From a virus: a stretch of DNA of 25,992 nucleotides. The notes beneath the pieces are model-generated. The model was not told where the DNA came from. It saw only the letters and a list, made by a program, of their open reading frames with translations, and made no database searches. The translations under genes and the position numbers were made by a program. Each line of letters begins with the position of its first letter. Positions within the stretch are counted from its first letter, which is position 1. Shown here piece after piece: positions 1,976 to 25,088 of this stretch. The stretch lies in IMG/VR virus record IMGVR_UViG_3300025736_000003, one strand, 5' to 3'.

Positions 1976-2009
1976 TTATCATAACACACACGAAGTATTA
2001 TTGCGTTAC

Positions 2010-3415: not shown

Positions 3416-3556
3416 TTACCTTCCATTTTTTTTCTCCTTATTTACAATATCAGCTATATCAACAAAATCACCAACTTCTAAACCAAAGTATTCTCTTGTC
3501 GATTTATCGAGGATGATAACTACTGACCCACCGAATTGTTTTATTTGTTTTATCAT
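3416..3556 (-). CDS. AbrB/SpoVT/MazE-like small DNA-binding protein (46 aa)
   Basis: Translation MIKQIKQFGGSVVIILDKSTREYFGLEVGDFVDIADIVNKEKKNGR has the GxxVVxIxK....GLxxGDxVxI pattern of swapped-hairpin AbrB-type domains. Below the ORF-track length cutoff; found by manual translation. Confidence 0.4.
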   Translation of the reverse strand: MIKQIKQFGGSVVIILDKSTREYFGLEVGDFVDIADIVNKEKKNGR

Positions 3557-3610
3557 ATTTTATTTAGTAATATTAACTATTTAAACCTTTCTATTTGGTG
3601 TTTGGTGTGT

Positions 3611-4481: not shown

Positions 4482-4578
4482 TAGAACAACTAGAACAACT
4501 AGAACAGGTGATGTCCACTCAATTCTACATATGGAAAGTAAGTGGGGTTTGCCTGTTCTTCTTGTTCTACCTGTTCTA
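4482..4578. promoter_or_regulatory. Inverted arrays of AGAACA(A/G) repeats (3 + 3 copies) around a 43-bp spacer: candidate origin or operator
   Basis: Three tandem tagaacaac/tagaacagg units at 4482-4508 and, on the opposite strand, cctgttct/tcttgttcta/cctgttcta at 4552-4578. The right arm overlaps the last codons of the primase-helicase gene. Confidence 0.45.
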
Positions 4579-6189
4579 TTTGATAATTTCACCCTTAAAT
4601 TTAATTCCAACCCATGCCCTTCCCTTCTTATTTATATCCCATGGAAGATATTTTAATTTCTGTTCAATCCCTAATTGTTTCATTTTACTACCAATTACTA
4701 CATCTGAAATTTCTCTAAACCTATTTTCTTTACACCATTCGTTTAACTTTTTAGAAAAATCATTTTTCCATACTACACCATCAGAGTCTTCTTCTGTAAA
4801 TTCTTTAAGGAATTTTTCTAAAGGATTACTATGATCCTCATATTTTTTCATTCTATCTTCAATTGTACCTTCATTAGTAAATTCTCTTTTCTCTAATAAA
4901 TCTTTTAATATTAAAGAACATTTAACAGTTAGTGCTTCATATTCCTCATCTGGTATCTCAGATAATATATCTTTCTTTTCTGAAAATTGGTTTGGAAAAT
5001 CTATAATCATCCATCTTCTATAAAATCCAATAGTTTTATCATTTGTGGCTGGAAGATTATTAGTAGCAATCATTATTTTAGCATAATTAATTTCTTCAAA
5101 AGGATCTTTATTTTTATACTCAAACCCTATTAAATCTCCACCTGATAATTTCTTTAAGATAGAAGTTTTATTCATTTCTGAAAAATTAGTTTCTCCCATT
5201 TGACAAACTAATTTTTTATGTAATCGGGTAACCTCAAATCTACTTTGTAATAAAGTATCTAATTCTGTTGAACAGCAATTACTGCCCCCAATAAATTTCC
5301 TGAGTAAATTTAAGAAACAACTTTTACCATTCATACCACCACCAATAAAACAAAAGATTCTATGGATAGGATAATCTGGAATTAAACAATATGCTAATAT
5401 TTCATATAAGGTTTGAACGTGATCCTTCCCAACCCATTCCTCAAATATTTTGTCCATTATGGGAGTTTCATAAAATCCATCTTCATTTAATTTCCATGGT
5501 ATTGGATTAGTAACAAATAGATGTGGTGTTGCCCTTGATTGCTCCCCTGTCTTAATATTCATTATAGTATTTTCAAATTGAACTGTATATTTTCCTATTG
5601 GGGCCGGAATATTTAATCTACTTACTTGTTTAAGAGCTTCAATCATCTCATTTTTTTCCTTAGAATTTATTGTGTTTATTGTTGCTTGTTTATCAACTGC
5701 ATTTAATATATCAGTTTCATCTACTCTTTCCCATTTTGTTTCTGGCCAATTCCATAACCACCAACTTCTAGAATTATCATATAAACAGGGTTGTATTTCA
5801 ATAATATGTTCTGCTAATTCTTTTTTATCGAACATATTCCCAAGTTTTTCTGTTAAATTTTCGACAGGATAATTTTTCTTTTCATTTTCTTCAATAGTTC
5901 TTTTTTGTTTTTTAAAATAATTTAATTGTTCTTTAAGAAGAGTAATTTTTCTACCAGTTTTTTTAGATAAAATTTTTAACGCATCATCTATTTCTAAAGG
6001 GGACAACCCTAAGATATTTTTTAACTCTTTTATTACTTCATCTGACGATGATATTTTTATTTTTTTATCATTTATTAATTCAATAAATCCGTTATCAATA
6101 TATTCCTGTTCATCCCCTCCTGGAAAACTCGCCTCTTTTATCTCTCCAGCTTTCCCACCAGCATAATTTTTTAATATTTTAATTTTCAT
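4576..6189 (-). CDS. D5/P4-family primase-helicase (SF3 helicase domain), 537 aa
   Basis: D5_N-like segment with SRSWWLWNWPETKW. Walker A FIGGGMNGKS (the GxGxNGKS form typical of P4-type primase C-terminal domains), motif C IMIATNNLP, and YRRWMIIDF as an arginine-finger region. Confidence 0.8.
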   Translation of the reverse strand: MKIKILKNYAGGKAGEIKEASFPGGDEQEYIDNGFIELINDKKIKISSSDEVIKELKNILGLSPLEIDDALKILSKKTGRKITLLKEQLNYFKKQKRTIEENEKKNYPVENLTEKLGNMFDKKELAEHIIEIQPCLYDNSRSWWLWNWPETKWERVDETDILNAVDKQATINTINSKEKNEMIEALKQVSRLNIPAPIGKYTVQFENTIMNIKTGEQSRATPHLFVTNPIPWKLNEDGFYETPIMDKIFEEWVGKDHVQTLYEILAYCLIPDYPIHRIFCFIGGGMNGKSCFLNLLRKFIGGSNCCSTELDTLLQSRFEVTRLHKKLVCQMGETNFSEMNKTSILKKLSGGDLIGFEYKNKDPFEEINYAKIMIATNNLPATNDKTIGFYRRWMIIDFPNQFSEKKDILSEIPDEEYEALTVKCSLILKDLLEKREFTNEGTIEDRMKKYEDHSNPLEKFLKEFTEEDSDGVVWKNDFSKKLNEWCKENRFREISDVVIGSKMKQLGIEQKLKYLPWDINKKGRAWVGIKFKGEIIK

Positions 6190-7919: not shown

Positions 7920-8276
7920 TTATTTGATGGCCGCAATATATAAAGCATTCAACTTAGTCTCGTTAAAACTTCTCTTAGTCTTCCCATTAATAACTTTCTC
8001 TTTAAAATCCCTACCCGTCCAATCTCTAGCATTAGTTACTTCCTTATCACAAAGTTTAGCTACCTCATATTCAAAATCATCGTCGATATTCATATCGGGT
8101 TCATCTAAATATAATTGCATACTTTTCCCACCACAATCAAAAGTTACTACTCCTTCATGTCTTGTATTTGTATCAACTGGTTTTGGGGTAAAAGTTGCTT
8201 TATCTAAAAGGGTTACTCCAGCAACGGCTACACCAATCATCATTATTGCCATCAAAACAATTATTTGTTTTTTCAT
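7920..8276 (-). CDS. Secreted protein (118 aa)
   Basis: N-terminal MKKQIIVLMAIMMIGVAVAG signal-peptide-like segment. Confidence 0.5.
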   Translation of the reverse strand: MKKQIIVLMAIMMIGVAVAGVTLLDKATFTPKPVDTNTRHEGVVTFDCGGKSMQLYLDEPDMNIDDDFEYEVAKLCDKEVTNARDWTGRDFKEKVINGKTKRSFNETKLNALYIAAIK

Positions 8277-8277
8277 T

Positions 8278-10089
8278 TTAATTTACCTCCCTAATATATT
8301 TATAAACCCAAACTCCGTTACAAATAGAATCATCCAATCCTAATCTTGAACTCCCACTCATATATCTTACAACACCTTTAGCAGTATTATTAAATATAAA
8401 GTTTTCCATTGTCCATTCAACTCCTTCGTTTTGACAAGCCGCCTCAAAATAAACCGTTTCTGCCTGATTTGTTTCACAATAATTTCCACTCCAATTCATT
8501 TCGCTATATTGAAAATTTGGAATGGCTGAAAAACAAGTCCCACCAGTATTATTCAAATAAACATTATTGAATCTTACAATATGATTTGGGTCTGCATAGT
8601 TTCTCCAAAATTGTTTTATTCCATAGCTATTTGTATTTAGCATTGTAACATTATTACCCTCGACAATAGTGTTTTCACTTCTAGGAAATATTGCTATTCC
8701 AGTCGTTCCAGTATTAATCCCATAAATTGTATTGTTAATAACTGAGGTATCTTTATTTGAATTAGTCGAGCCTGTCCCTTGAATCTGTATCCCACTTCGT
8801 CCATTATAAGAAATGTAGATAGTATTATTTATTATATCATTTCTATTTGAAATAAGGGCGGCTCCAAAAACTATTGGATTTCTGTTTCCTGTTGTGTTAA
8901 TCCAATTATCTCTTATAATATTATCATTGTGAGTTCCAGTATTAAAATGTATAATACCATCTTGAATTTTGTTATTTTTAACTATATTATTACTTGCCCC
9001 GTTGTAGATACTTATAGAGTTAGCAATTCCGAAAAAGTTATTTTTTTCTATCAGATTATTATTATTATTTGTATGAAAACTTATTCCATTTGAAATACCC
9101 GTCAAGGTGTTATTAATATAATTATTATAAGAACAGCTTGAATAACATTCTATATTATCAGTCCCCCCCGTGAAGGTTGTTACATTATTTCCAGTAATAT
9201 TTGTATGAATTACACCAACCATATAAATTCCGTTTTGGGTAGTTCCACCGTTGGCAGAAGTAACATTATTATTATTTATGTTTTCATAATCCCCTCTTAA
9301 ATAAACGGGATAATTATTGTTTCCAGTATTTCCAGCCTTAACATTACAATTTTGCAAAGTATTTCTATCAGAACCATACGCCATATAAACTCCATATCTT
9401 GAACTTGAATAAGTTGTTCCGTAAGTTATATCATATCCATCGCAATCAAGAATTATATTGTCTCCAGTAAAAGTCATACAAGTTCCTGTCGATGAAACAC
9501 TTACGTTCAATTTATAATTTTGGTTGCTTGTTGCGAAAGTAGAACAGGCTGTCACATTTGTATAAGCTAAATTCATTCCGTCTAAAGTTTGCTTAAATTT
9601 TAGAGTTAAAGTTTTCTTATCTTTGCTCAAATCCCAAGAGCAATTTATCAAACACTCTTTATCAAAATCGAAGATTTGTCTGAATTCATTCCATTCATCC
9701 TTAGGATTCTTTTTATAAGTATATGCGGATAGCGTCTTAAAATCAGGATTAATTTCTTCAAGCAAAATTATATCCGAATCACTTTTTAAAGTATAAATGA
9801 AATCTTTTAATGAATCACTTTTTGTTGTTGGTTTAATAATATATTTTCCTTTCTCTTCTATAAAATCTAAATCATAAGATTTTGAAGATAAAAAGGTATC
9901 TTCTTTAAGTTCTATGTTCGCACTATTCCAATCGGTATCAAAAACTATTTTATTGCTATCCTTACTAATTAATGTTATACTAGAAGATATATCTTCTCCA
10001 ATATTTGAATCTAAATCACTTCCAAAGATTAAAGGTAGAATACCAATTAACAATATTAGAATAGAAAAATATATAATTTGTTTTTTCAT
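8278..10089 (-). CDS. Secreted right-handed parallel beta-helix repeat protein (603 aa), receptor-binding/adhesin- or depolymerase-like
   Basis: Signal peptide MKKQIIYFSILILLIGILPLIFG. Many about 22-aa repeats of the form NNxI.G.N.....GI (NNIVKNNKI, NIIRDNWI, NDIINNTIYIS, SVINNTIYG, NTIVEGNNVT), typical of pectate-lyase-fold beta-helices. Dense NxS/T sequons. Confidence 0.65.
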   Translation of the reverse strand: MKKQIIYFSILILLIGILPLIFGSDLDSNIGEDISSSITLISKDSNKIVFDTDWNSANIELKEDTFLSSKSYDLDFIEEKGKYIIKPTTKSDSLKDFIYTLKSDSDIILLEEINPDFKTLSAYTYKKNPKDEWNEFRQIFDFDKECLINCSWDLSKDKKTLTLKFKQTLDGMNLAYTNVTACSTFATSNQNYKLNVSVSSTGTCMTFTGDNIILDCDGYDITYGTTYSSSRYGVYMAYGSDRNTLQNCNVKAGNTGNNNYPVYLRGDYENINNNNVTSANGGTTQNGIYMVGVIHTNITGNNVTTFTGGTDNIECYSSCSYNNYINNTLTGISNGISFHTNNNNNLIEKNNFFGIANSISIYNGASNNIVKNNKIQDGIIHFNTGTHNDNIIRDNWINTTGNRNPIVFGAALISNRNDIINNTIYISYNGRSGIQIQGTGSTNSNKDTSVINNTIYGINTGTTGIAIFPRSENTIVEGNNVTMLNTNSYGIKQFWRNYADPNHIVRFNNVYLNNTGGTCFSAIPNFQYSEMNWSGNYCETNQAETVYFEAACQNEGVEWTMENFIFNNTAKGVVRYMSGSSRLGLDDSICNGVWVYKYIREVN

Positions 10090-11619
10090 CTAACAGCCTC
10101 CATAAAATATTCCAGTATCATTATATTTAGTAGTTCCAATACAAGCAAATTCTTCTACATATACAGCTTCGGTCATATTAACATTAGCTCCAATTTCAAA
10201 AATCCCATCGCCTGTCTCTGGATATAATTTTAAGTTTGGTGCATTATTCTTTAAATCAAATTCCCAATCAATAGTAGTAGTGTCATCAACAATATCATAT
10301 AAGCTAAATAGCCCAGGTTGTATTAGAGAATTATAATGAGTGCCCGTTGTCCAATCTGTGAAATCTGTTGCGTCTGTAACAAATAATATTGGAGACCCTG
10401 CAATCGCATCCATAAATCCATAAAAATAATTCCCAGAAATTCCATATCCTTCTATATCCCAATCCCCAGTAGCAGTCGAGCTACCGTCTGATTTCCAATA
10501 ATTAGAACTTCCATTCCAATTCCCATTAAAATAATCTGCTGTTATATTTGCTGTAGTTGTTATATCATTATCTTTAAAATTAACATCACCATCAGCTTCA
10601 ATAACCATTCTTTCATTCGAATATCCATTTGTATAGAATGCTAAGTCTGTTGCTACTTCTGTCCCCATTGAAAATCTCCCGTCGTTATATCCATAATAAC
10701 TAAAAATAAAATCTGTTGGAGAATAAACATCATTATAAAATAATCCTGTCCAATAACTTGCATCTGTATTTTGGTGAACTTCAAATGGTGCATAATTTAC
10801 ACTTGTTGTTTCACTACCCATTAAAAAACTTCCAGCAGTATTTGTTACACTTAATCCTGTTGATGATACACTTCCAGTTATATTAGAGTTTCCACTTACT
10901 TCTAAATCTCCTCCTATGTCTGCGTCGTCACCGACAAACAAATCATCCCAAGATATAATATCACCAATATTAGTTTCTATGTTTCCTGCTATAGCATAAA
11001 TATCTCCACCAGCAGAAGTTATTGCCCCGTTGGCACTAATAATTCCACTCGAAGTTATATTATCGAAAATTGAATTACCAATTACTTCTAATGTTCCATA
11101 GAACTTACTCGTTTGTAAATTGCCAATAGTTCCAACAAAGAAATTATTTCCGTTTAAAAAATTAATATATGTATTTCCACCGTCAAGAATCAAATCTGCT
11201 AATCCATTTGTAAAAATAGCTTCTCCAAAAATTCCATGATATAGTGAGAAGTCTGTATCAATATTATTACTTATTGTTAAATTATTTGATGTAAATGCTC
11301 CACCATTAATAATATCATTCCCACCCATATCAATATCTCCGGCCATTGTGCATCCGGTTAAAGCACACCACAAAGCATTTCCAAAAGATGTCAAATATGT
11401 TTCGCTAATAGTTAAGATTCCTCCGACGTTGTTGTGCTGGGTGGAATCAACACCTGTTAGAGCACCTATATTTGTTATCCAATTATTTGATGCATTAACA
11501 AAAGCTGTATTATTATCAAAAGGTATAGGGGGTGAATTTAAATCTATACCAATTATACCATCAACACCAGCACTAGAAAAACCAATCATTAAGATTAGCA
11601 ATAAAACCGAGTATTTCAT
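10090..11619 (-). CDS. Secreted Gly/Asn/Thr/Asp-rich repeat protein (509 aa), fibre/adhesin-like
   Basis: Signal peptide MKYSVLLLILMIGFSSAG, followed by low-complexity Gly-rich repeats (GGDLEVSGNSNITGSVSSTG...). Confidence 0.55.
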   Translation of the reverse strand: MKYSVLLLILMIGFSSAGVDGIIGIDLNSPPIPFDNNTAFVNASNNWITNIGALTGVDSTQHNNVGGILTISETYLTSFGNALWCALTGCTMAGDIDMGGNDIINGGAFTSNNLTISNNIDTDFSLYHGIFGEAIFTNGLADLILDGGNTYINFLNGNNFFVGTIGNLQTSKFYGTLEVIGNSIFDNITSSGIISANGAITSAGGDIYAIAGNIETNIGDIISWDDLFVGDDADIGGDLEVSGNSNITGSVSSTGLSVTNTAGSFLMGSETTSVNYAPFEVHQNTDASYWTGLFYNDVYSPTDFIFSYYGYNDGRFSMGTEVATDLAFYTNGYSNERMVIEADGDVNFKDNDITTTANITADYFNGNWNGSSNYWKSDGSSTATGDWDIEGYGISGNYFYGFMDAIAGSPILFVTDATDFTDWTTGTHYNSLIQPGLFSLYDIVDDTTTIDWEFDLKNNAPNLKLYPETGDGIFEIGANVNMTEAVYVEEFACIGTTKYNDTGIFYGGC

Positions 11620-11942
11620 TACTCAAACCTTCCTCTACTCATAAAAAACCATATACCAGATAAGGTTGTAACACCAGTTACAATCAATAGGATAGGGAGT
11701 GTTATTAGCCCAGCTTTAGTAGTCATTACCAAGCTTAATAAAACACAGGATAATGATGCTAGTGTAGCCCATTGTGGCATATCTGCATAACCGGATCTCT
11801 TACTTTGCATTATAGATCCTCTAAGAAAAATTAACATCCATGTAAAAAATAAAATCATAATTGGCAAAGCAGGTATTATCGTCGCAGTTCCTATTAATAC
11901 TTCATCTGGAGTCGTCCCATTTGGAAATTCAAATGTTGCCAT
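11619..11942 (-). CDS. Small polytopic membrane protein (107 aa)
   Basis: Three hydrophobic helix-length segments in the translation. Confidence 0.5.
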   Translation of the reverse strand: MATFEFPNGTTPDEVLIGTATIIPALPIMILFFTWMLIFLRGSIMQSKRSGYADMPQWATLASLSCVLLSLVMTTKAGLITLPILLIVTGVTTLSGIWFFMSRGRFE

Positions 11943-11943
11943 A

Positions 11944-12375
11944 CTATTCGGGTGATCTCCCTAACCATGCTTTAATTGTGAAATATCCAATAATAAAAGT
12001 TATCATTGTTACAAATGTTATGGCAATAAAACTAAATTCCCTACCAAATATTATAAAGAACCCAGTATTAAATGAAGAGATAGCTAAACTCATCGCAGTT
12101 AATGGGCCTATTTTAAATTGTGCACCAGTTGATGAATGTTCGTCACCACTTTCAAGTGTCGATTTAAATAATATTTCTTGTGATGTTTCAGATTCTCCTG
12201 AAAGTTTTGTGATGTTGCTTTTTATGCCGGTTTCTAAATTAGCATATCTTGAATCCTGTGCTAAACTAATATCTGAATCGTTATCTATTGCAAATTGAGT
12301 CATAAATATTATTACAGAAACAATAAAAATACCTGTTAATGCTGCTCCAATAATCATTCTTGAATATCCAGCCAT
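11944..12375 (-). CDS. Membrane protein (143 aa)
   Basis: N- and C-terminal hydrophobic helices flanking an acidic middle region. Confidence 0.5.
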   Translation of the reverse strand: MAGYSRMIIGAALTGIFIVSVIIFMTQFAIDNDSDISLAQDSRYANLETGIKSNITKLSGESETSQEILFKSTLESGDEHSSTGAQFKIGPLTAMSLAISSFNTGFFIIFGREFSFIAITFVTMITFIIGYFTIKAWLGRSPE

Positions 12376-14888
12376 TATCTTTTACCACTCCCTTTAATTA
12401 TAACAACAACAACAGCTACGACAAACCATAATATTGTTGCCCCTGCCCCTACAATAGATGTTGAGTATGCTAAGTTTAATCCTATTAACAAAAATGCTCC
12501 AAGTATTAAAAATATACCCGTAATTAATGGATTATCACTTACACCCATACCGAACATTAATAATAATAATACAATAGATGAGAAGATTAAAACTCCTCCA
12601 TATTGATCCTTAGGATTATCTTTTAATAATATATAACCTTCCCTTCTTATATCTCCATTTAAAGCAATCGTCGCATATATTGTAGAGTTGCCAAATGATT
12701 CTGGTATAGTACATAATAGAGTTCCACCTGCAGCATTTAATAAATCAGAACATACAGAGGTATTACCAAAATTATCTATGAGTGTTACGTTCAACTGTAC
12801 AATATTACTAACACCACTAATTATCCCAAAAGTAGAACTTACAACCCTTGTATCTTTATCATAAGTTAAAGATGAGAAGAAATCTGATTCTGTAATTATA
12901 TCAAATAAATCTGTTCCTGTAATTAAAGCATTCAAATTAATTTCACATGAAGTTATAAGAGGATTTTGGCAATTAGCTATTACCTCAGTAAAGCTATCTA
13001 ATAGTTCACCATCTTTAATAAAAAACAAATTATATATAACATCGTTTGGAACTAAGTGTGCTATTGTAAAACCATTAGTACCACTCATAGGTATTTCTAT
13101 AGTTTTAAAAACACCTTCTTCAATATATTTTCTCTGGACTTGAACTATTAAATCAGAAACTGGTATAAAATCTTGCCCCTTATATGTTATTTTAAATTCC
13201 TGTCCTTCAGATTCTGCTAAGTTATATAATGTTATATTTTGTGATCTAGTAGAATTATCAAAAATAAAGTTTTGAACATTATAAAATTCCACAAATTTAT
13301 CTATTGCTGTATATTCAATTACTGCATCCATCCTTAAAGTAGAATTACCAACAGAATTATTCATACAAACTCTAGCAGGATTTATTTTTGAATATTCTTT
13401 TGAAAATTGTATTATTTCCTCAGAGTTATCAGGAAAAGAAAATCTCATATCAAGTTTTATAGAAGAATTTTCTGTTACTCCATCTATTTGTAATTGTGTT
13501 GTTTCATCTACAATGGTAAAATTAAAGATTTGATTAGTAAAAACTGAGCAATCATCAATACTAATTTCAAATATAGTTTGATTTTGTGTAGTAGAATTTT
13601 GTATAAAACCGCTTTCTAAAGAAACACTCCAATAGAATGGCACAACTTCCGTACCATTAACTTGTTGTATATTTTTATTTATTGTTGCGAACCATTCGTC
13701 GTCGTCATATTCCGTAAATGTTGTAGGGTAAGACGTTCCATTATAAACGAATAAAACATTAGTTAATCTCTCAAATGTTATAACTGATATATTTATATTA
13801 AAATTAGAAGTATCACCCTCTAATACATTAGGGGAAAACTCTTCGTTTAAAACACTAAATGGAACAACATTAAAAGTAAAATTATTTTGTGCAAACGTAC
13901 AATTATTGAATGAAGAGTTCTCATAACAAATTTCTGCATTCCAAATATAATTTCCCAAAACAAATTCGTCGATAAACAATGATTCGTTAAATGTTCTATT
14001 TGGAGAAAGAGATATTGTAGTTTGGTTATGTATAGAACTATCATTATTCCATATAAAGTAAGTTACATTTGTTACATTATAATCACCAATAACATCCCCA
14101 CTAACTGTAAAATTTGCACCTATATCTGATATTGTTGAATCATTTACAGGAGAAATTAATTTTATTAATCCACCACCTGAATATGGTAATGCATCACTTG
14201 AATTATAAAGTTCTATTATTTCATCAGGTGTTAGAATTTTATTAAAAATTCCAACCTCATCAATATCTCCGTTCCAAGCATTTGTATATCCAACATTATA
14301 TCCTATCCCAGTTTTCGTACCAACAGTACCCTGCCCTGTCATATTCTCTTTCCAAATAGTATCAATATACATTTGTGTATTAGTTCCATCCCATACTAAC
14401 GTAGCCATATGCCAAGCGTTATCAAATAATCCTAAAACACCTGAGGTATCCCAAGCTATCCCTTCTTGTAATAATCTTATATCTGAACTATAACTTGCAG
14501 ATGTAGCAATACAATTCCCCTTCCCTGTATCACCATTGATACAAAGTAATCTACCTTCCGATCCAGGCTGTGTTGTAGATTTAAACCAAACATTTGCAGA
14601 ATAATCTCCTGTCTGAACACCGCTTGTTCCATAAAGTGAATTACCAGAACCATCATAATTACGTCCATCTATTAATATCCCTGAGGAATTTGTTGTTCCA
14701 GAATTTGTTAAATTATTTGAAGAAACTATATCTGTTAAAACATTGTTATCTAATTTATAATAAGAAGTTATATTATCATTCCAATCAAAACCACTAACTT
14801 GTGTTGAAAACGTAAGGATGAAACATACTACCACTATCAAAAAGATTGATGAGGATGGCTTATACGAAGAGTTTTTTTCAGTTTTCAT
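12375..14888 (-). CDS. Large surface (spike/envelope-like) protein, 837 aa, with N-terminal signal peptide and C-terminal membrane anchor
   Basis: Signal-like N-terminus (SIFLIVVVCFILTFSTQVSG) and about 70 C-terminal hydrophobic residues ending in KGSGKR. Numerous NxS/T sequons. A possible concanavalin-A/LamG-like beta-sandwich near the N-terminus is my inference only. Confidence 0.6.
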   Translation of the reverse strand: MKTEKNSSYKPSSSIFLIVVVCFILTFSTQVSGFDWNDNITSYYKLDNNVLTDIVSSNNLTNSGTTNSSGILIDGRNYDGSGNSLYGTSGVQTGDYSANVWFKSTTQPGSEGRLLCINGDTGKGNCIATSASYSSDIRLLQEGIAWDTSGVLGLFDNAWHMATLVWDGTNTQMYIDTIWKENMTGQGTVGTKTGIGYNVGYTNAWNGDIDEVGIFNKILTPDEIIELYNSSDALPYSGGGLIKLISPVNDSTISDIGANFTVSGDVIGDYNVTNVTYFIWNNDSSIHNQTTISLSPNRTFNESLFIDEFVLGNYIWNAEICYENSSFNNCTFAQNNFTFNVVPFSVLNEEFSPNVLEGDTSNFNINISVITFERLTNVLFVYNGTSYPTTFTEYDDDEWFATINKNIQQVNGTEVVPFYWSVSLESGFIQNSTTQNQTIFEISIDDCSVFTNQIFNFTIVDETTQLQIDGVTENSSIKLDMRFSFPDNSEEIIQFSKEYSKINPARVCMNNSVGNSTLRMDAVIEYTAIDKFVEFYNVQNFIFDNSTRSQNITLYNLAESEGQEFKITYKGQDFIPVSDLIVQVQRKYIEEGVFKTIEIPMSGTNGFTIAHLVPNDVIYNLFFIKDGELLDSFTEVIANCQNPLITSCEINLNALITGTDLFDIITESDFFSSLTYDKDTRVVSSTFGIISGVSNIVQLNVTLIDNFGNTSVCSDLLNAAGGTLLCTIPESFGNSTIYATIALNGDIRREGYILLKDNPKDQYGGVLIFSSIVLLLLMFGMGVSDNPLITGIFLILGAFLLIGLNLAYSTSIVGAGATILWFVVAVVVVIIKGSGKR

Positions 14889-15427
14889 ACATTAAACCTC
14901 CCTTCAGGGCTTCCGGTAAAAAATATTATACCAGCTATAAATGCAATTATTGTCATTATAACAGGGCTATAAATAATTAAATAAGATACAAGTGAAGCAT
15001 CCCTGAGGTTTATACCCAACTCATCTTGCCCAACATAAAACTCTTCATAGAATTGGCTAACCGCTATGCACGTTATTATTAATAATAATACTGAGAATAC
15101 AAATAAAGCTATAACCCAACCATTATGATTATCTCTCATCACAAAAGATAGCGATAGTAATCCAACAATACCAACAATATAAATCAAACCCATAATCAAA
15201 CCAATATTATTTATTATAGAACCAATAGGGGTTAATACTGTTTCTGTATATTCGCTTACATTTATTCCAGGTGCAACTTCTCCTATATCATTAAACGCAG
15301 GGAATATTTCATCAGTTGTGGTTTTAATAACACCCCATCCAATAGTTGCCCCAGCCACAAGTAATACTAGGAATATTAATCCACCAATCAATAATGCTAT
15401 AGCCCATATTTGTCCTTTGTTATTCAT
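14885..15427 (-). CDS. Polytopic membrane protein (180 aa, about 4 TM)
   Basis: Four hydrophobic helix-length stretches; ATGA-coupled to neighbours. Confidence 0.55.
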   Translation of the reverse strand: MNNKGQIWAIALLIGGLIFLVLLVAGATIGWGVIKTTTDEIFPAFNDIGEVAPGINVSEYTETVLTPIGSIINNIGLIMGLIYIVGIVGLLSLSFVMRDNHNGWVIALFVFSVLLLIITCIAVSQFYEEFYVGQDELGINLRDASLVSYLIIYSPVIMTIIAFIAGIIFFTGSPEGRFNV

Positions 15428-15630
15428 TTGTGTTTCTCCGGTAAGTTAGTTAATTCTTCTAGCAACTTTCTATAACTTGGACATCTAGTTGCCAAGTTTG
15501 ATATTTTAGGCATTGTCATTTCCCTGGGCGAACACCTACTCAGCTTCTTTTCCATTCTTGTAGCACCAGCTTTAAATAAGTCTGTAAACAGTGTTTCATC
15601 CATTCTAGCAGTCCTACTCTTTGATTTCAT
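15424..15630 (-). CDS. Small basic protein (68 aa)
   Basis: ORF coupled by 4-nt overlaps on both sides; Arg/Lys-rich. Confidence 0.35.
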   Translation of the reverse strand: MKSKSRTARMDETLFTDLFKAGATRMEKKLSRCSPREMTMPKISNLATRCPSYRKLLEELTNLPEKHK

Positions 15631-16349
15631 TTGAACTCAACACCCCTTTCAATTAACCCAAGCATCTCTTTGCTTAAAACAATCCTTTGAATCATTGCAA
15701 TAATACAGAGAGGGATAATTATAAGATTAGATAACATCATAATAGTAAATATTCCAAATAAGAAACTACCTAACAAACCTGTATCTAAATATGCTATTGC
15801 AATATTAGATGCTATAAAAACTATTGATGTTAATAGAATCCAGACAGACCCCTTCACAACTGGCCTGATATATGCTAATTTTGAAACTTCTAATACAAAT
15901 CCTTGATCGTCACGAGCATCAGTTGGTAAAACGTTTAGAAACATAAATAGTAATCCCATAATAAATATTAAGAAAATAATTAAACCCAAATAAAGAATCG
16001 CAGTTTGGGGCGTAAGAGTATGACCATTATAAGTAACTGGAACGGTATTACATCCGGTATCTTTTTCTACACTATTTCCACAACTATAACAATAAGTAAG
16101 GGTATCTTTTTCTGTTAAATTGCCACCTTCAATTAAGAATGAATAATGAGTCCCATCTTGAGTAGCCTCTATGTTTGAAAATAATAATTCTCCACCATAG
16201 GTAACCCTTGTAAAATTACAACCTGTACAATTATTACATTCTTGATAAATTTCATAATCATCTCCTATTTGTGTAGGTGTTAATTCGACAGCCCCTACAA
16301 AAGTAAAAGCAAACATTAAAAATAATAATAATATTACTTTTTTCCCCAT
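15627..16349 (-). CDS. Membrane protein with Cys-rich ectodomain (about 240 aa)
   Basis: I placed the start at the ATG at 16349 (MGKKVILLLFLMFAFTFVGA, signal-like) because AGGAGG lies 9 nt upstream. A CNNCTGCN...CYSCG...GCN cluster is followed by several TM helices. Confidence 0.5.
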   Translation of the reverse strand: MGKKVILLLFLMFAFTFVGAVELTPTQIGDDYEIYQECNNCTGCNFTRVTYGGELLFSNIEATQDGTHYSFLIEGGNLTEKDTLTYCYSCGNSVEKDTGCNTVPVTYNGHTLTPQTAILYLGLIIFLIFIMGLLFMFLNVLPTDARDDQGFVLEVSKLAYIRPVVKGSVWILLTSIVFIASNIAIAYLDTGLLGSFLFGIFTIMMLSNLIIIPLCIIAMIQRIVLSKEMLGLIERGVEFK

Positions 16350-17131
16350 GGCCAAATACCTCCTGTTTTTTGTTGTGTTTCCATAACTGGATTTCCCCTT
16401 GATTCGGATATGTGTGTATGTTGTCTTAATGTTCTCCTTTCCTCTCCCTTCCATGCCCTTAAATAAGTTGCATGAATAGCATCTTGGATAACCCTAACAG
16501 TTATCATATATCTTTTTAATTTACTTTTTATTATTTGTTGTTTTATTTTTTCTAATTCTTCCTCTACTCTATCTTCAATCTTTGCGAATTTTTCATTAAT
16601 AATTTCATCTCTATTATATTCAATACCAGCAACTTCTTTAGCATAGGCGGATATTTCAGTTTGCCTTTCAATTCTATCCTTAAGTACATCAATACATTGT
16701 TTAACAGTTGGAGAAATAAATACTTTATCATATTCCATAAATATAGTATCAATCAAATCATTAGTAAAATCCCACATCTTCTTTCTTATTGTAGCATCGT
16801 CAAAATTAGATAATAATAAATTTTTGTTCAAATACCAGCAGATAGTATTTCTTATTAAATGTATTCCATACTCAGTAAAAATAACCATATCATCATTAGT
16901 AGGAGCTTTCCATATTAACTTCCCATCTACCCCAGGTTCTAATGAATATCCTTTTAATAAATAATCGATCCTTGATATTTCATCACTTAAATCTAGTTGC
17001 TCTCTAGTTATTGATTTCTCTTCTGGTTGCATAAATGTTTCTTGCTGTGCTCTAACTAAGGCTTGTTGTCCAGCTTCTATCTTTGCTGCATCCAATTCTT
17101 GTTGATATTTATCTATTAAATCTTGATCCAT
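16334..17131 (-). CDS. Hypothetical soluble protein (265 aa)
   Basis: ORF in the operon; acidic and coiled-coil-like at the N-terminus; no motif recognised. Confidence 0.45.
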   Translation of the reverse strand: MDQDLIDKYQQELDAAKIEAGQQALVRAQQETFMQPEEKSITREQLDLSDEISRIDYLLKGYSLEPGVDGKLIWKAPTNDDMVIFTEYGIHLIRNTICWYLNKNLLLSNFDDATIRKKMWDFTNDLIDTIFMEYDKVFISPTVKQCIDVLKDRIERQTEISAYAKEVAGIEYNRDEIINEKFAKIEDRVEEELEKIKQQIIKSKLKRYMITVRVIQDAIHATYLRAWKGEERRTLRQHTHISESRGNPVMETQQKTGGIWPWGKK

Positions 17132-21137: not shown

Positions 21138-21139
21138 TT

Positions 21140-21175: not shown

Positions 21176-21206
21176 ACTAATTAAGAATTATTACTATTTA
21201 AATATA

Positions 21207-21406: not shown

Positions 21407-21859
21407 ATGGCGATGGATGATAATAAAGAAACTACATTTAATGAAGCAGTTTTGAAGATGCAAAGGATTCATATTCTACAACAAGAAATTAATCTACTTA
21501 GAATTAATCTACTTGCATGGAATCTTGAATATAGTAAATATAACTATGATGTTGTAATATCTGATTTAATAAGTTTATGTTATGAGGTTAGGCCTCTTAT
21601 GAAAATAGAGGAAAGAAATGAATTTAGTTTGCTTAAGGAGTTAGTTGATGATTTAATATCATACAAACCTATATTTAAAAAAATTAATACTTCTAATTTC
21701 TCAGGTAAAAATAATAATGAAAGTATCGACACTAATAATTGGAATATGTTAAGGGGTGTTATATTTAAATTTGAGGACTTTGCTAGGGATCAAGTTGATA
21801 TACATGGGCTGTCTGCTCCAAAGAAAAAGGATGCCTCTAGGGCTGCGGTTGATCTATAA
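21407..21859 (+). CDS. Hypothetical protein (150 aa)
   Basis: First gene of the plus-strand block; its stop overlaps the next start (TAATG). Confidence 0.5.
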   Translation: MAMDDNKETTFNEAVLKMQRIHILQQEINLLRINLLAWNLEYSKYNYDVVISDLISLCYEVRPLMKIEERNEFSLLKELVDDLISYKPIFKKINTSNFSGKNNNESIDTNNWNMLRGVIFKFEDFARDQVDIHGLSAPKKKDASRAAVDL

Positions 21860-22872
21860 TGAAATTCTTAGAAAAAGAGTTCCCAAAGGGTTCGTTCCCA
21901 AAACAACAAACAGATGGTGCATATATAAATCAAACATTAGCAGATAACTTAAATGTATATGCTAAACAGATTGTAAAAGATATGCACTTCTTAATAATTA
22001 TATCAGGTAACGACGCTGTTGGAAATGGTAAATCTACTTTGGCAACACATGTTGGTGCATACTTAACTAATAAAATAAATGAATTACATGGTATAAATAA
22101 TACCTTCACTTCTAGCAATGTTGCACTAAGGGCGAAAGATTTAGTTAAGCAAAGTTTTGATAACCCACAATACTCAGTTAATGTTTTAGATGAGGGTGAC
22201 GATTTAACAACTCATGGTATGAAGCAATCTGCAGTTGAGCTTAAGAGATACTTCCGTAAATGTAGGCAACTAAATCAAATCTTAATATTAATATTACCAT
22301 CCTTCTTTGAACTCCCAAAATTCTATGCATTAGCAAGAAGCCATTCTTTAATTAATGTTAAATTTCATGGAGAGTTTGAGCGTGGTTCATTCGATTTCTA
22401 TGGACCAAAGAGTAAAAAGAAATTATATTTGAAAGGAAAAAGAGAGTGGGATTATGACGCTGCATCTCCAGACTTCTATGGATCTTTCTTCTCTACTTAT
22501 ACCTTCTTCCCTGGCTTGAATGATGAGATTGCTGCTTATAAAAAGAAGAAGTATACTGATATGATTGATGATGCTGATGAGGATCACACACAACTATCAC
22601 CTATACAAGTAGAACGAATGTTAAAGGCTAAATTGTTTAAGCAGGTGTATAATAATATCCCCAATATTACTATACCCATATTGTCTAATGCGTTTGGCGT
22701 ATCAAGTAGGACTGGTGATAGATATTTATCCAACGAATATGACGAAAAAATAAAAATCCTAAAACACGAAATCGACGCCCCGCCGACTAATACTAATAAT
22801 ACCATAAGGGATTTGGATGATGTGGTGAGTCCAGAGAAGCATCCAGGGGTTATAGTAAGGACTATTAGTTAG
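21859..22872 (+). CDS. P-loop NTPase with C-terminal HTH-like segment (337 aa), AAA+/DnaA- or IstB-like architecture
   Basis: Walker A GNDAVGNGKST around residues 51-61, Walker B VNVLDEGDD around 108-116, and a C-terminal ITIPILSNAFGVSSRTGDRYLS helix-turn-helix-like segment. Confidence 0.6.
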   Translation: MKFLEKEFPKGSFPKQQTDGAYINQTLADNLNVYAKQIVKDMHFLIIISGNDAVGNGKSTLATHVGAYLTNKINELHGINNTFTSSNVALRAKDLVKQSFDNPQYSVNVLDEGDDLTTHGMKQSAVELKRYFRKCRQLNQILILILPSFFELPKFYALARSHSLINVKFHGEFERGSFDFYGPKSKKKLYLKGKREWDYDAASPDFYGSFFSTYTFFPGLNDEIAAYKKKKYTDMIDDADEDHTQLSPIQVERMLKAKLFKQVYNNIPNITIPILSNAFGVSSRTGDRYLSNEYDEKIKILKHEIDAPPTNTNNTIRDLDDVVSPEKHPGVIVRTIS

Positions 22873-22989: not shown

Positions 22990-23304
22990 ATGAGAAACAA
23001 TAAGAAAGGACAGAGTGCTAATATTGGTGCAATGATAGGAGGTATTATAGGTTTGATATTTCTAGTTGTTGTAGGATTTGTATCTTTAGATATTTTGACT
23101 GGTGCTGGATTGCTAACAAGTGATTCTGCATTTGATAATGCTACAGATAGATTAGTTGGTAATCTGACGGCTGGTGTAGACAAGGTATCTGTAAAGATTC
23201 CAATAATGTTTACTATCACTGTAGCTGTTCTATTACTTGGATTGATTGTATTCCTTGTCATCAGGGCAAGACAAGCACAGCAAGTTCAAGGCGGAACTAT
23301 TTAA
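22990..23304 (+). CDS. Small hydrophobic two-helix protein (104 aa), candidate major virion/membrane structural protein
   Basis: Canonical AGGAGG 8 nt upstream of the ATG, preceded by TATA-like boxes. Two hydrophobic segments (IGAMIGGIIGLIFLVVVGFV and IMFTITVAVLLLGLIVFLVI). Confidence 0.5.
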   Translation: MRNNKKGQSANIGAMIGGIIGLIFLVVVGFVSLDILTGAGLLTSDSAFDNATDRLVGNLTAGVDKVSVKIPIMFTITVAVLLLGLIVFLVIRARQAQQVQGGTI

Positions 23305-23766: not shown

Positions 23767-24105
23767 CTAGTATCTATGGTTGAGTTCAGTTGGGCTATTA
23801 GATTCTGTAGTGTCATTATCGACTCCACTAGCTCCGCCCTGAAGTAACTCTCGTTTTGCATTGATAACAGCGTTTTGTAAGTCTGGTTTTCTTTCAGTAT
23901 GTTTTCCACTTTCTCTGAATCCCACTCCGTTTGGTTTCCACTCACTTTGGTTAGCTGCTTCTCCTTTTCGTCCTGGATCATCTTCTTCTTTATACCTCCT
24001 TTTCATTCTTCTTATTTTTATATCTTCTATAATTTTAAGTGTGAACCAAACTAGAACACACCAGATAACAAGTCCAATAAATAATTCTATCCACATCTTA
24101 AGCAC
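23767..24105 (-). CDS. Hypothetical protein with N-terminal TM helix (112 aa)
   Basis: ORF with N-terminal hydrophobic segment WIELFIGLVIWCVLVWF. It overlaps an alternative-frame ORF (23715..23981), so the true frame is uncertain. Confidence 0.35.
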   Translation of the reverse strand: MLKMWIELFIGLVIWCVLVWFTLKIIEDIKIRRMKRRYKEEDDPGRKGEAANQSEWKPNGVGFRESGKHTERKPDLQNAVINAKRELLQGGASGVDNDTTESNSPTELNHRY

Positions 24106-24796
24106 TAACTAATCCAGTCCCTCCTGAACAAATAGAATCAACATGACCCAGTGCTCTCATAATAGGTTCTTGTGCTTCTGCAAGTGCCCTTGCAGCTTCA
24201 GATAATTCTCCTCCAATAACTCCTATTTGTTCTAACATAAACCATATACCTGCAAACAAAATTATTAAAACAAAACCTCCCATTATCCAAGAACCATACC
24301 TATCCATAAAAGTTATCTTAGGGCCATAATTTTCTGCAGCATTTTTTCTCATAGCGACGCTAACATATTTTATGTCCCTATCAACCATTTCAATATCTAA
24401 CGTACCCATTTTTGCATCTAAATCTCCCAAAACAATATTATACCACCCACCATCTTGGCCAATAGCAAACCAATATTTATTTGATCCCATCTTTTTACCG
24501 TAGGCAGTTAGTGGCATCTTCTTTTTTCTAAGCCAAAAAACCTCAGTACCATCTTTACTTAATCTTAAATATTTTGCAGTATCGTTCATGGTGTTTTGCC
24601 AACCCTGCCCAGAGATATTTTCAAACACAGCTATATTAAATTTGTATAATTTCTTATTAAAATACCACCAAATAATTGCGGCCGCTATTCCAAGCATTAC
24701 AATAACAGCGAAGCCAACCATAAGATAAATACCCCATGCCGAATTAGCCATACTCGGTAAATCTATCCCGGTTTCCATTCCTGCAACTGTCCCCAT
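24098..24796 (-). CDS. Membrane protein (232 aa, 2 TM)
   Basis: Hydrophobic helices near residues 20-45 and 175-195; GGAAGG about 12 nt upstream. Confidence 0.55.
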   Translation of the reverse strand: MGTVAGMETGIDLPSMANSAWGIYLMVGFAVIVMLGIAAAIIWWYFNKKLYKFNIAVFENISGQGWQNTMNDTAKYLRLSKDGTEVFWLRKKKMPLTAYGKKMGSNKYWFAIGQDGGWYNIVLGDLDAKMGTLDIEMVDRDIKYVSVAMRKNAAENYGPKITFMDRYGSWIMGGFVLIILFAGIWFMLEQIGVIGGELSEAARALAEAQEPIMRALGHVDSICSGGTGLVSA

Positions 24797-24956: not shown

Positions 24957-25088
24957 CTATTTAAACTTTGTGTTATGTAGTTTTTTATCGAGTGCATTCT
25001 TTAATATTTTAGTTGATATAAAATAAATTAATATTTTTAAAGAGATAACCACTGCTGCTGCTAAAAATATTTTTATCCAAAAATTCAT
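24957..25088 (-). CDS. Tiny membrane protein (43 aa)
   Basis: Manual translation MNFWIKIFLAAAVVISLKILIYFISTKILKNALDKKLHNTKFK; ATGA overlap with the upstream ORF. Confidence 0.3.
   Translation of the reverse strand: MNFWIKIFLAAAVVISLKILIYFISTKILKNALDKKLHNTKFK

What the first reader, a model, noticed from the sequence alone, without database searches (positions are those of the whole stretch)
8278..14888. Surface proteins dense in NxS/T sequons suggest a glycosylated envelope and possibly an archaeal host
The beta-helix protein and the 837-aa anchored protein contain dozens of N-x-S/T sequons. Several genes lack an SD but have a TATA-like box about 30 nt upstream of the ATG, while others have canonical AGGAGG. 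This mix fits archaea such as methanogens but is not proof, since AT-rich bacteria also give Asn-rich proteins.
Basis: inference. Interest (0 to 1): 0.5.

Follow-up and report, generated by a model that had tools for sequence, protein, structure and literature searches.

The report
Sequon-rich spike of likely archaeal virus
The 837-residue membrane protein belongs to a very large, unannotated family of virus surface spikes that carry twice as many N-glycosylation motifs as chance predicts, which points to a sugar-coated particle and most likely an archaeal host, while the neighbouring beta-helix protein is Asn-rich only by composition.

Summary
The window is a complete circular 25,865-bp, 31% GC element with no recognisable capsid, portal or terminase gene. 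The 837-aa protein has 31 N-x-S/T sequons against 14.9 expected from composition. Twenty-five of them lie in its beta-sandwich stalk. The excess is about 2-fold in nearly every homologue, and 24 sequon positions are conserved. Control motifs sit at expectation. The beta-helix protein (14 against 15.6) and the window's own 509-aa protein (9 against 9.3) show no excess. Across about 100 related contigs only the exported or membrane protein families are enriched (1.5-2.4x). Cytoplasmic families are not (0.3-0.9x). The sequons lack the bacterial D/E at -2. The spike has a signal peptide, a swappable LamG lectin head, a conserved stalk and three C-terminal membrane helices. The stalk plus anchor has 2,818 relatives among 1.84 billion representative proteins and no Pfam family. 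Four exact TATA boxes start 29-36 nt upstream of start codons that lack a Shine-Dalgarno motif. Hairpin terminators are not enriched. The only genome hit is a contig binned in a Methanosarcinales MAG. An archaeal host is favoured but not proven. Glycosylation, the envelope and the virion shape are all inferred.

The parts
12375..14888 (-). 837-aa spike-like glycoprotein. Signal peptide aa 1-33. LamG/ConA-like lectin head aa ~34-235 (nt 14184-14789). All-beta stalk of about five beta-sandwich domains, aa ~236-757 (nt 12618-14183), carrying 25 of the 31 sequons and conserved Cys pairs. Three C-terminal membrane helices aa 759-835 (nt ~12378-12617).
11944..12375 (-). 143-aa multi-pass membrane protein, a core gene always immediately downstream of the spike gene.
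   Evidence: Found in 75 related loci. Family sequon ratio 1.47x.
11619..11942 (-). 107-aa membrane protein with three hydrophobic segments and the N-terminal sequon NGT; a core gene.
   Evidence: Found in 65 related loci. Family sequon ratio 2.3x.
10090..11619 (-). 509-aa secreted protein with a signal peptide. The N-terminal ~108 aa are conserved and the rest is variable: a fibre-like accessory host-recognition protein.
   Evidence: Only the first ~108 aa match the 1,080-aa protein of L007. Family members reach 2,514 aa; family sequon ratio 1.96x, but this copy has 9 against 9.3 expected.
8278..10089 (-). 603-aa secreted right-handed beta-helix protein: a hypervariable accessory protein, possibly a glycan-binding or glycan-degrading spike. 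Its sequons are NOT in excess.
   Evidence: Pfam Beta_helix E 0.0015, below the gathering cut-off. Only 4 homologues among 5.8e9 proteins. 14 sequons against 15.6 expected.
7920..8276 (-). 118-aa small secreted or anchored protein, the last gene of the leftward structural operon. A T7 tract follows about 45 nt downstream.
14885..15427 (-). 180-aa four-helix membrane protein with the N-terminus MNNKGQ followed by a hydrophobic stretch (class III signal-like); a core gene upstream of the spike gene.
   Evidence: [KR]G[QDN] plus a hydrophobic stretch is kept in divergent homologues. Found in 35 loci; family sequon ratio 1.77x.
15627..16349 (-). 240-aa membrane glycoprotein candidate with a Cys-rich ectodomain and C-terminal membrane helices; a core gene.
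   Evidence: Found in 37 loci; family sequon ratio 2.39x. Start taken from the public gene calls.
16334..17131 (-). 265-aa conserved soluble protein of the module; no sequon excess.
   Evidence: Found in 24 loci; ratio 0.83x. No match in phage records.
17134..20787 (-). 1,217-aa basic, low-complexity protein with a conserved C-terminal ~100 aa. Depleted in Asn and in sequons; presumably internal or cytoplasmic.
   Evidence: Family sequon ratio 0.31x.
21407..22872 (+). Rightward leaderless operon: a 150-aa protein followed by a 337-aa AAA+-type ATPase with a C-terminal winged-helix domain.
   Evidence: Walker A and B motifs with weak RuvB/AAA/nSTAND hits. TATA box 21372-21379 lies 35-28 nt upstream of the ATG.
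22990..23304 (+). 104-aa protein with two hydrophobic helices joined by a loop bearing the sequons NAT and NLT. Candidate major structural protein (spindle-virus-like helical hairpin).
   Evidence: Core gene with a conserved N58-x-T/S; three tandem paralogues in L104. No sequence match to known capsid proteins.
24098..24796 (-). 232-aa conserved membrane protein with helices at both ends.
   Evidence: Found in relatives at 34-71% identity.
24958..24965 (-). TTTAAATA box 29-22 nt upstream of the SD-less ATG at 24936. It lies within the 30-nt element 24941-24970, which is repeated in inverted orientation at 21367-21396.
3578..3585 (-). TTTAAATA box 29-22 nt upstream of the SD-less ATG at 3556, which starts a 46-aa AbrB-like ORF. 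A similar TTTATATA box at 25459-25466(-) precedes the ATG at 25430.
4576..6189 (-). D5/P4-type primase-helicase of the replication module.
   Evidence: Pfam DUF5906 and D5_N, TIGR01613, PHROG 864. Equally distant from bacterial and haloarchaeal virus homologues.

Best explanation
The 837-aa protein is the membrane-anchored host-recognition spike of a capsid-less, membrane-containing virus (pleomorphic or spindle-shaped). The virus most likely infects a low-GC, mostly anaerobic archaeon.

Proposed mechanism (inferred):
- The protein is exported through the Sec pathway.
- On the outer face of the host membrane its stalk is N-glycosylated at many N-x-S/T sites by the host oligosaccharyltransferase (AglB).
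- It stays anchored by three C-terminal membrane helices and is incorporated into the particle together with the small membrane proteins of the same operon.
- The exchangeable N-terminal LamG lectin head binds a surface glycan or glycoprotein of the next host. The conserved glycan-covered stalk holds the head away from the membrane, and it may also mediate membrane fusion.
- The downstream 509-aa and beta-helix proteins are variable accessory host-range proteins.

Shown here: the domain architecture, the sequon excess and its conservation, its restriction to exported proteins, the size of the family and the gene synteny.

Inferred: actual glycosylation, presence in a virion, the envelope, the fusion activity and the archaeal host.
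For: 1. Sequon excess. 31 observed against 14.9 expected. 25 against 10.3 in the stalk, with none in the head (5 against 4.1) or in the membrane helices.
2. The excess is a family property. The ratio is about 2 in 44 of 46 homologues, while S/T-x-N and N-x-x-S/T stay at expectation. It is 2.07x in 146 representatives at 50% non-redundancy.
3. Position conservation. 24 alignment columns carry a sequon in at least half of 24 sequences that go down to 25% identity, and N383-x-T385 is invariant.
4. Compartment specificity across about 100 loci. Spike 2.07x, 509-like 1.96x, 240-like 2.39x, 107-like 2.3x, 180-like 1.77x, 143-like 1.47x. Against these: 265-like 0.83x, 1,217-like 0.31x, helicase 0.77x, ATPase 0.91x.
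5. Sequon context fits an oligosaccharyltransferase acceptor and not the PglB type. Thr:Ser is 64:36, Pro is depleted after the S/T (0.28x), and D/E at -2 is 7.7% against a 9.8% background.
6. Architecture. Signal peptide, LamG head, all-beta stalk and three membrane helices. The head is replaced by other domains in some homologues. 142 of 146 representatives keep three C-terminal hydrophobic segments.
7. Virus-like context. The genome is circular. There is no capsid, portal or terminase match. All relatives lie on contigs of 34 kb or less at 28-39% GC. The module order 265-240-68-180-spike-143-107 is conserved. A helical-hairpin structural protein candidate and an AAA+ ATPase are core genes.
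8. Archaeal indications.
9. Negative control. No protein of a 35.5% GC Enterococcus phage shows an excess.
Against: - No experimental or proteomic evidence of glycosylation or of particles exists.
- Host evidence is indirect. The Methanosarcinales link is a 9.6-kb all-viral contig at 31% GC inside a metagenome bin.
- The SD consensus AAAGGAGGT, with its A-rich 5' extension, resembles that of low-GC bacteria.
- Accessory genes of relatives include a bacterial-style DnaG zinc ribbon and nothing that is archaea-specific.
- The stalk shows no detectable similarity to the pleolipovirus VP4-type fusogen or to fusexins, so a fusion role is speculative.
- The window's own 509-aa and beta-helix proteins show no excess, although they should pass through the same export route.
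- The z-scores pooled over loci are inflated by redundancy among related contigs. The ratios are the robust measure.
Confidence: 0.62

Rival explanations
1. The element is a plasmid or integrative element rather than a virus. In this reading the triple-anchored glycoprotein is a cell-surface adhesin or fusogen that mediates cell-cell contact or fusion for DNA transfer, as proposed for the archaeal fusexin Fsx1, or that decorates plasmid-carrying vesicles.
For: Fsx1 has the same overall layout: signal peptide, large ectodomain and three C-terminal membrane helices. It sits on mobile elements (PMC9259645, read). No capsid gene is recognisable here. The element carries plasmid-like replication and recombination genes.
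Against: No conjugation or HerA/VirB4-type genes were found in the window or in 91 accessory ORF families. All copies lie on virus-sized contigs, and several are listed in IMG/VR. A small helical-hairpin protein with multiple paralogues, typical of spindle-virus coat proteins, is a core gene. No fold or sequence match to Fsx1/HAP2 was seen.
Confidence: 0.16
2. The host is a low-GC bacterium. In this reading the sequon excess reflects either an unrecognised bacterial N-glycosylation system or a structural preference of this beta-sandwich fold.
For: The SD consensus AAAGGAGGT is used by 74% of internal genes. The helicase has equally close homologues in Firmicute phages. AT-rich DNA yields TATA-like strings easily, and their total number is at chance. 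One promoter also scores 9 of 12 as a sigma-70 site.
Against: The excess is compartment-specific and position-conserved, with oligosaccharyltransferase-like context rules and no D/E at -2. Control motifs are at expectation. The bacterial phage control shows no excess. For the promoter upstream of the ATG at 24936, the -10 hexamer of the sigma-70 match ends 2 nt before that ATG, so transcription would start inside the ORF. Hairpin terminators are not enriched and none lies at an operon end. The only genome hit is archaeal.
Confidence: 0.12
3. The sequons are a by-product of Asn/Ser/Thr-rich composition in an AT-rich genome and have no function.
For: This holds for the beta-helix protein (14 against 15.6) and for the window's 509-aa protein (9 against 9.3).
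Against: It is rejected for the spike. The excess is 2-fold over whole-protein and local shuffles, reverse and shifted motifs sit at expectation, positions are conserved, and the result replicates in hundreds of homologues.
Confidence: 0.03

Closest known systems
Pleolipoviridae spike/fusion protein VP4 (HRPV-1 VP4, HRPV-6 VP5; PDB 6QGL) and the pleolipovirus morphogenetic module
   Same: Both are archaeal, capsid-less, membrane-vesicle-like viruses. The main exposed protein is a Sec-exported, C-terminally anchored spike used for host recognition and fusion, encoded next to small integral membrane proteins and an NTPase (PMC10919331). From my own knowledge, HRPV-1 VP4 is N-glycosylated.
   Different: No sequence or fold similarity was detected. 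This protein has three C-terminal helices instead of one. It is longer, with a LamG head and a tandem beta-sandwich stalk. The genome is 25.9 kb against 7-17 kb. The replication module is different.
Archaeal fusexin Fsx1 (PDB 7P4L)
   Same: Both have a signal peptide, a large beta-rich ectodomain with disulfides and three C-terminal membrane helices. Both are carried by archaeal mobile elements and occur widely in metagenomes (PMC9259645).
Spindle-shaped archaeal viruses (Fuselloviridae, Halspiviridae, Thaspiviridae) and the proposed 'Nipumfusiviridae' (PMC10866085)
   Same: Both have a small coat protein made of two hydrophobic helices, with N-glycosylation sequons in the connecting loop. Both have an AAA+-type ATPase and large adhesin-like proteins. 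Genome sizes are 25-38 kb. Both lack matches to tailed-virus structural genes.
   Different: No sequence similarity to known coat proteins was found. None was found to 14 kb of one Nipumfusiviridae genome either. The genome here is circular with a D5-type helicase rather than linear with a protein-primed polymerase. The spike family is not described in that paper.
LamG / concanavalin A-like receptor-binding domains of phage and archaeal virus adhesins
   Different: Here the domain tops a membrane-anchored stalk instead of a tail fibre.

Membership tests
Substrate of archaeal-type N-glycosylation (AglB; sequon N-x-S/T, x not Pro) | Sequons present on the extracytoplasmic part of the protein and under selection | tested here: met
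   31 against 14.9 expected. 25 of the 31 lie in the stalk and none in the membrane helices. 24 conserved sequon columns. The excess is restricted to exported protein families.
Substrate of archaeal-type N-glycosylation (AglB; sequon N-x-S/T, x not Pro) | A glycan is actually attached to Asn | not testable with these tools
   Needs mass spectrometry or glycoprotein staining of particles or host membranes.
Bacterial PglB-type N-glycosylation substrate | Extended sequon D/E-x-N-x-S/T | tested here: not met
   D/E at -2 in 2 of 31 sequons of the window protein. In 2,912 family sequons it is 7.7%, against a 9.8% background.
LamG / concanavalin A-like lectin domain (Pfam PF13385) | Profile match above the curated cut-off, and a jelly-roll fold | tested here: met
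Pleolipovirus VP4-like fusogen | Sequence or fold homology to HRPV VP4/VP5 (V-shaped fold, PDB 6QGL) | tested here: not met
Pleolipovirus VP4-like fusogen | Single C-terminal membrane anchor | tested here: not met
   Three helices, at 759-783, 787-807 and 812-835.
Fusexin (Fsx1/HAP2/class II fusogen) | Signal peptide, ectodomain and (for Fsx1) three C-terminal membrane helices | tested here: met
   The Fsx1 layout is taken from PMC9259645.
Fusexin (Fsx1/HAP2/class II fusogen) | Three-domain class II fold with a fusion loop, homologous to HAP2 | tested here: inconclusive
   No 7P4L, HAP2 or EFF-1 match among the listed hits. The stalk was not searched separately from the head.
Spindle-shaped archaeal virus (SSV1 VP1 / His1 VP21-type coat protein) | Coat protein of about 70-110 aa made of two hydrophobic helices, often in several paralogues | tested here: met
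   The 104-aa protein at 22990-23304 is a core gene, with three paralogues in L104.
Spindle-shaped archaeal virus (SSV1 VP1 / His1 VP21-type coat protein) | Detectable homology to a known spindle-virus coat protein | tested here: inconclusive
   No PDB or PHROG hit.
Proposed family 'Nipumfusiviridae' (PMC10866085) | [quoted passage not shown] | tested here: inconclusive
   No BLAST or HMM similarity to the 14 kb that could be fetched (L106/L107) of the 35.7-kb IMGVR_UViG_3300001450_000008. The rest of that genome was not examined.
Tailed (HK97) or double-jelly-roll viruses | Major capsid protein, portal, and terminase or packaging ATPase | tested here: not met
   No such Pfam or PHROG hit for any ORF of the window.
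Archaeal host (transcription signals) | TATA box centred about 26 nt upstream of the transcription start, with leaderless first genes | tested here: inconclusive
   The spacing fits four promoters, and a peak at -30 to -27 appears among 224 operon-first genes of relatives. Transcription starts are unknown.

The most novel reading that the evidence does not exclude
The conserved stalk plus triple membrane anchor defines a previously unrecognised, globally distributed class of prokaryotic envelope glycoprotein that acts as a membrane fusogen. It would mark a new family-level (or higher) lineage of archaeal viruses that infect uncultivated low-GC archaea, such as DPANN or other anaerobes. The virions would be coated by host-made N-glycans, making this an archaeal counterpart of the glycan shields of eukaryotic enveloped viruses.
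Probability: 0.25. Interest if true: 0.8.

Novelty: new variant of a known kind. Interest (0 to 1): 0.58.

Why it matters
Archaeal viruses outside extreme habitats are poorly known, and their entry proteins are almost uncharacterised.

This protein family has thousands of distinct members in saline lakes, sediments, groundwater and sea water. It has no Pfam family and no relative among isolated viruses or plasmids. If these are glycosylated spikes of archaeal viruses, three things follow:
- They give a sequence marker for finding a large hidden virus group in metagenomes.
- The swappable lectin heads give a handle on host recognition.
- They offer a prokaryotic system for studying glycan shielding and possibly membrane fusion.

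The export-specific sequon excess is also a simple, testable sequence signal. It could help separate archaeal from bacterial viruses when no spacer match exists.

Tried and rejected
Host assignment:
No integrated copy was found.
- No tRNA gene is present in the window or in 40 related loci.
- Pfam scans of 91 accessory ORF families from relatives gave HNH, integrase, methyltransferases, a DnaG zinc ribbon, ParB and a ThyA fragment. None is specific to one domain of life.
- NCBIfam added nothing.
- The D5-type helicase is equally distant from bacterial and haloarchaeal virus homologues.
- Cluster look-ups gave no organism names.
- Literature searches for the sample accessions gave nothing usable. 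That JGI sample 3300005935 is Ace Lake is only my recollection.
- CRISPR spacers could not be searched.

Fold and family:
- The first AF2 model (14 sequences, pLDDT 60) was too poor to use.
- In BFVD it best matched two unnamed viral proteins of 811 and 771 aa (E 7.6e-20 and 1e-18) that I could not identify.
- The AlphaFold database library was unavailable.
- tblastn of the spike and of the 265-aa protein against phage records, and of the spike against plasmid records, found nothing beyond a LamG fragment in a cyanophage.
- The NSV1 accession is not in the phage collection.
- The ATPase gave only generic AAA+/RuvB/STAND similarity.

Rejected ideas:
- A eukaryotic virus is excluded by SD motifs before 74% of internal genes and by overlapping operon genes.
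- A composition artefact is rejected for the spike.
- Bacterial intrinsic terminators and sigma-70 promoters as the main transcription signals are not supported: neither is enriched.

Full report
**What the window is**

The first 127 bases repeat exactly at the end, so this is a complete circular element of 25,865 bp. It has 31% GC and no tRNA gene. Genes are tightly packed and mostly on the minus strand.

The only recognisable functions are:
- a D5/P4-type primase-helicase at 4576-6189;
- a C5 DNA methyltransferase at 899-1549;
- a serine recombinase at 25489-25986;
- a weak right-handed beta-helix match in the 603-aa protein;
- a LamG domain in the 837-aa protein.

No capsid, portal, terminase or tail gene is detectable. 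The same contig occurs in several public assemblies and in IMG/VR.

**Checking the observation**

I counted N-x-S/T (x not Pro) in every ORF and compared each count with 2,000 shuffles of the same protein.

| Protein | Observed | Expected |
|---|---|---|
| 837-aa protein | 31 | 14.9 +/- 3.3 (z 4.8; no shuffle reaches 31) |
| Beta-helix protein (603 aa) | 14 | 15.6 |
| 509-aa protein | 9 | 9.3 |

The beta-helix protein is sequon-dense only because it is 14.6% Asn, as expected for an asparagine-ladder fold.

Within the 837-aa protein the excess is local:
- 25 sequons lie in residues 236-745, against 10.3 expected.
- The LamG head has 5 against 4.1 expected.
- The membrane helices have none.
- Shuffling within 40-residue blocks still gives only 16.0 expected.

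**Is the excess a property of the family?**

The indexed protein search found 46 homologues, all from metagenomes. In 44 of them the ratio is about 2 (z 2.6 to 8.5). The reversed motif S/T-x-N and the shifted motif N-x-x-S/T stay at expectation, and Thr is preferred over Ser.

In an alignment of 24 members going down to 25% identity, 24 columns carry a sequon in at least half of the sequences. Nine columns carry one in at least 80%, and N383-x-T385 is invariant.

An exhaustive HMMER search with the stalk plus anchor alone (residues 237-837) found 2,818 relatives at E <= 0.001, and 1,443 at E <= 1e-30, among 1.84 billion representatives at 50% identity. The match always lies at the C-terminal end of proteins of 378-1,606 aa.

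In 146 of the 150 best-listed representatives:
- the pooled sequon count is 5,281 against 2,548 expected (2.07x);
- 97% have a ratio above 1.5;
- the reversed motif is at 1.06x;
- 142 have three hydrophobic segments in the last 110 residues.

**Compartment specificity**

I fetched about 100 related loci. I clustered their ORFs and pooled observed and expected sequons per family.

| Family | Location | Observed / expected | Ratio |
|---|---|---|---|
| Spike | exported or membrane | 2,623 / 1,264 | 2.07x |
| 509-like fibre proteins | exported or membrane | 616 / 314 | 1.96x |
| 240-aa family | exported or membrane | 168 / 70 | 2.39x |
| 107-aa family | exported or membrane | 65 / 28 | 2.3x |
| 180-aa family | exported or membrane | 56 / 31.6 | 1.77x |
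| 143-aa family | exported or membrane | 171 / 116.6 | 1.47x |
| 265-aa family | soluble | 29 / 34.8 | 0.83x |
| 1,217-aa family | soluble | 13 / 42.0 | 0.31x |
| Helicase | soluble | 16 / 20.8 | 0.77x |
| ATPase | soluble | 10 / 11.0 | 0.91x |

The reversed motif is at or near expectation in the enriched families. The pooled z-scores are inflated by redundancy among loci, but the ratios are not.

The residues around 2,912 spike sequons behave like oligosaccharyltransferase acceptors. Pro is depleted after the hydroxy residue (0.28x) and aromatic residues are enriched at -1 and -2. D/E at -2 is 7.7% against a 9.8% background, so this is not the bacterial PglB sequon.

As a small negative control, no protein of a 35.5% GC Enterococcus phage shows a significant excess, including its carbohydrate-binding tail proteins.

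**Anatomy of the protein**

The parts, in order:
- a Sec-type signal peptide ending VSG or VSA;
- a short helix;
- an all-beta stalk of about five sandwich domains with conserved cysteines;
- three membrane helices (759-783, 787-807, 812-835) and a short basic tail.

The second AF2 model has a mean pLDDT of 81.5.

Several homologues replace the LamG head with unrelated domains while keeping the stalk. This is the pattern expected of a modular receptor-binding protein.

The stalk has no Pfam family and no PDB relative by sequence. Fold searches of the whole model returned only head-domain or generic tandem-sandwich matches. The two best BFVD hits (E 7.6e-20 and 1e-18) are unnamed viral proteins of similar length that I could not identify.

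**Genomic context**

The order 1,217-aa protein, 265, 240, 68, 180, spike, 143, 107 is conserved across the closer relatives, whose spikes are about 36-69% identical. More distant relatives (spikes about 23-27% identical) keep at least the 180-like, spike, 143-like and 107-like block by position and size.

Downstream of this block come variable secreted proteins. Only the first ~108 residues of the window's 509-aa protein are shared with a 1,080-aa protein in L007. The beta-helix protein has just four homologues among 5.8 billion proteins. These look like exchangeable host-range factors.

On the other strand lie a 150-aa protein and an AAA+-type ATPase with a winged-helix tail. Next comes a 104-aa protein made of two hydrophobic helices joined by a loop with conserved sequons. 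It is a core gene, has three tandem paralogues in one relative, and in one of those carries a 90-residue sequon-rich loop insertion.

That layout is the hallmark of coat proteins of archaeal spindle-shaped viruses, but I found no sequence match to any of them.

All relatives lie on contigs of 34 kb or less at 28-39% GC.

**Host domain**

Evidence for an archaeon:
- The sequon signal described above.
- Four exact TTTAWATA boxes start 29-36 nt upstream of ATGs that have no SD motif and that open a gene or operon. Only 0.15 are expected under random placement. This is the spacing expected for an archaeal TATA box on a leaderless transcript. Two of the boxes belong to a 30-nt element present in inverted copies.
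- Among 224 operon-first genes of relatives, the starts of TATA-like boxes peak at -30 to -27.
- Sigma-70-like promoters (106 against 99) and hairpin terminators (6 against 7.4) are at chance, and none of the terminator-like sites lies at an operon end. T7 tracts follow several operon ends.
- Two core proteins begin with [KR]G[QDN] followed by a hydrophobic stretch, which resembles archaeal class III signal peptides.
- The only hit among 185,579 species genomes is a contig of an 'uncultured Methanosarcinales archaeon' MAG.

Evidence that weakens this:
- That contig is entirely viral and has 31% GC, so it may be mis-binned.
- The SD consensus AAAGGAGGT has an A-rich 5' extension typical of low-GC bacteria.
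- No archaea-specific gene was found in 91 accessory families.

I put the probability of an archaeal host at roughly 0.8. The lineage is open. The uniformly low GC and the mostly anoxic, saline or sedimentary sources suggest a low-GC anaerobic archaeon rather than a typical Methanosarcinales.

**Comparison with known systems**

- Functionally the closest analogue is the pleolipovirus VP4 spike (PMC10919331). Sequence, fold and anchor number all differ.
- The archaeal fusexin Fsx1 shares the signal peptide, ectodomain and three-helix layout (PMC9259645), but no homology was detected.
- The proposed Nipumfusiviridae are putative spindle viruses of 27-38 kb assigned to ammonia-oxidising archaea. 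They have a hairpin coat protein with loop sequons (PMC10866085). They are the closest published parallel, but the 14 kb I could fetch from one member shows no similarity.

I therefore file this as a new variant of a known kind: an archaeal-type membrane virus with a glycosylated spike. I do not file it as a member of any described family.

**Verdict**

Selection for N-glycosylation sequons on exported proteins is well supported. An archaeal host is likely. The envelope and the virion type remain inferences.

Noticed in passing
window 119-217 and 734-832: A perfect 99-nt direct repeat. One copy lies inside a 72-aa ORF (684-902, minus strand) that begins MKYDILMIDPPWKK, a truncated MT-A70-type methyltransferase. 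The other copy abuts the ATG of the serine recombinase. The 615-nt unit between them holds three small ORFs. This could be an insertion, a duplication, a recombination site or an assembly artefact.
   Followed up: partly
window 1624-2023: About 33 tandem copies of a 12-nt (GGTCAR)2 unit, which raise local GC to 45%. A 111-aa ORF made of SG/SW/SR repeats (1678-2013, minus strand) is translationally coupled (ATGA overlap) to the 125-aa gene upstream.
   Followed up: no
window ~21139-21180 and ~22893-22905; also L046, L064, L070, L084: GCGTAACGCTGTAACGCAA occurs twice in tandem between a TATA box and the 123-aa gene. A GTTACATTGTAAC palindrome follows the ATPase gene. Similar GTAACA/TGTTAC clusters sit near promoters of distant relatives. 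This is a candidate operator for a family-specific regulator.
   Followed up: no
window 21367-21396 and 24941-24970: A 30-nt inverted repeat (90% complementary). It amounts to two copies of one promoter element, CAAAGTTTAAATA...ACTTACTAAT, each ahead of an SD-less ATG.
   Followed up: yes
window 3416-3556 (-) and 25257-25430 (-): Two small leaderless ORFs (46 and 57 aa) whose sequences look like AbrB/SpoVT-type swapped-hairpin DNA-binding proteins. Between them and the structural genes lie a 59-aa zinc-ribbon ORF (25085-25264) and a 46-aa ORF (24796-24936). The assignment is by eye only; no profile search was run on the 46-aa ORF, and NCBIfam found nothing for the 57-aa ORF.
   Followed up: no
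L104 17753-19010 (IMGVR_UViG_3300025109_003118): Three tandem paralogues of the 104-aa hairpin protein. One carries a 90-residue insertion in the loop that is packed with sequons.
   Followed up: partly
window 17134-20787 (-): A 1,217-aa basic, low-complexity protein with only 1.6% Asn. Across its family sequons are at 0.31x of expectation. It has an internal repeat (19540-19602 and 20065-20127, 76% identical) and a lysine-rich C-terminus. Only the last ~100 residues are conserved in relatives.
   Followed up: no
related loci, operon-internal gene starts: The SD consensus is AAAGGAGGT with spacers of 5-12 nt. The A-rich 5' extension resembles that of low-GC bacteria, and the consensus does not extend to GGTGA.
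   Followed up: partly
L095 54-1046 and three other relatives: Some relatives replace the serine recombinase with a ~331-aa ORF family (4 loci) that is probably one of the two tyrosine-integrase (Phage_integrase) hits among the accessory ORFs. If so, integrated copies may exist in host genomes. The Pfam output did not say which ORFs matched, and NCBIfam gave no recombinase hit for L095:54-1046.
   Followed up: no
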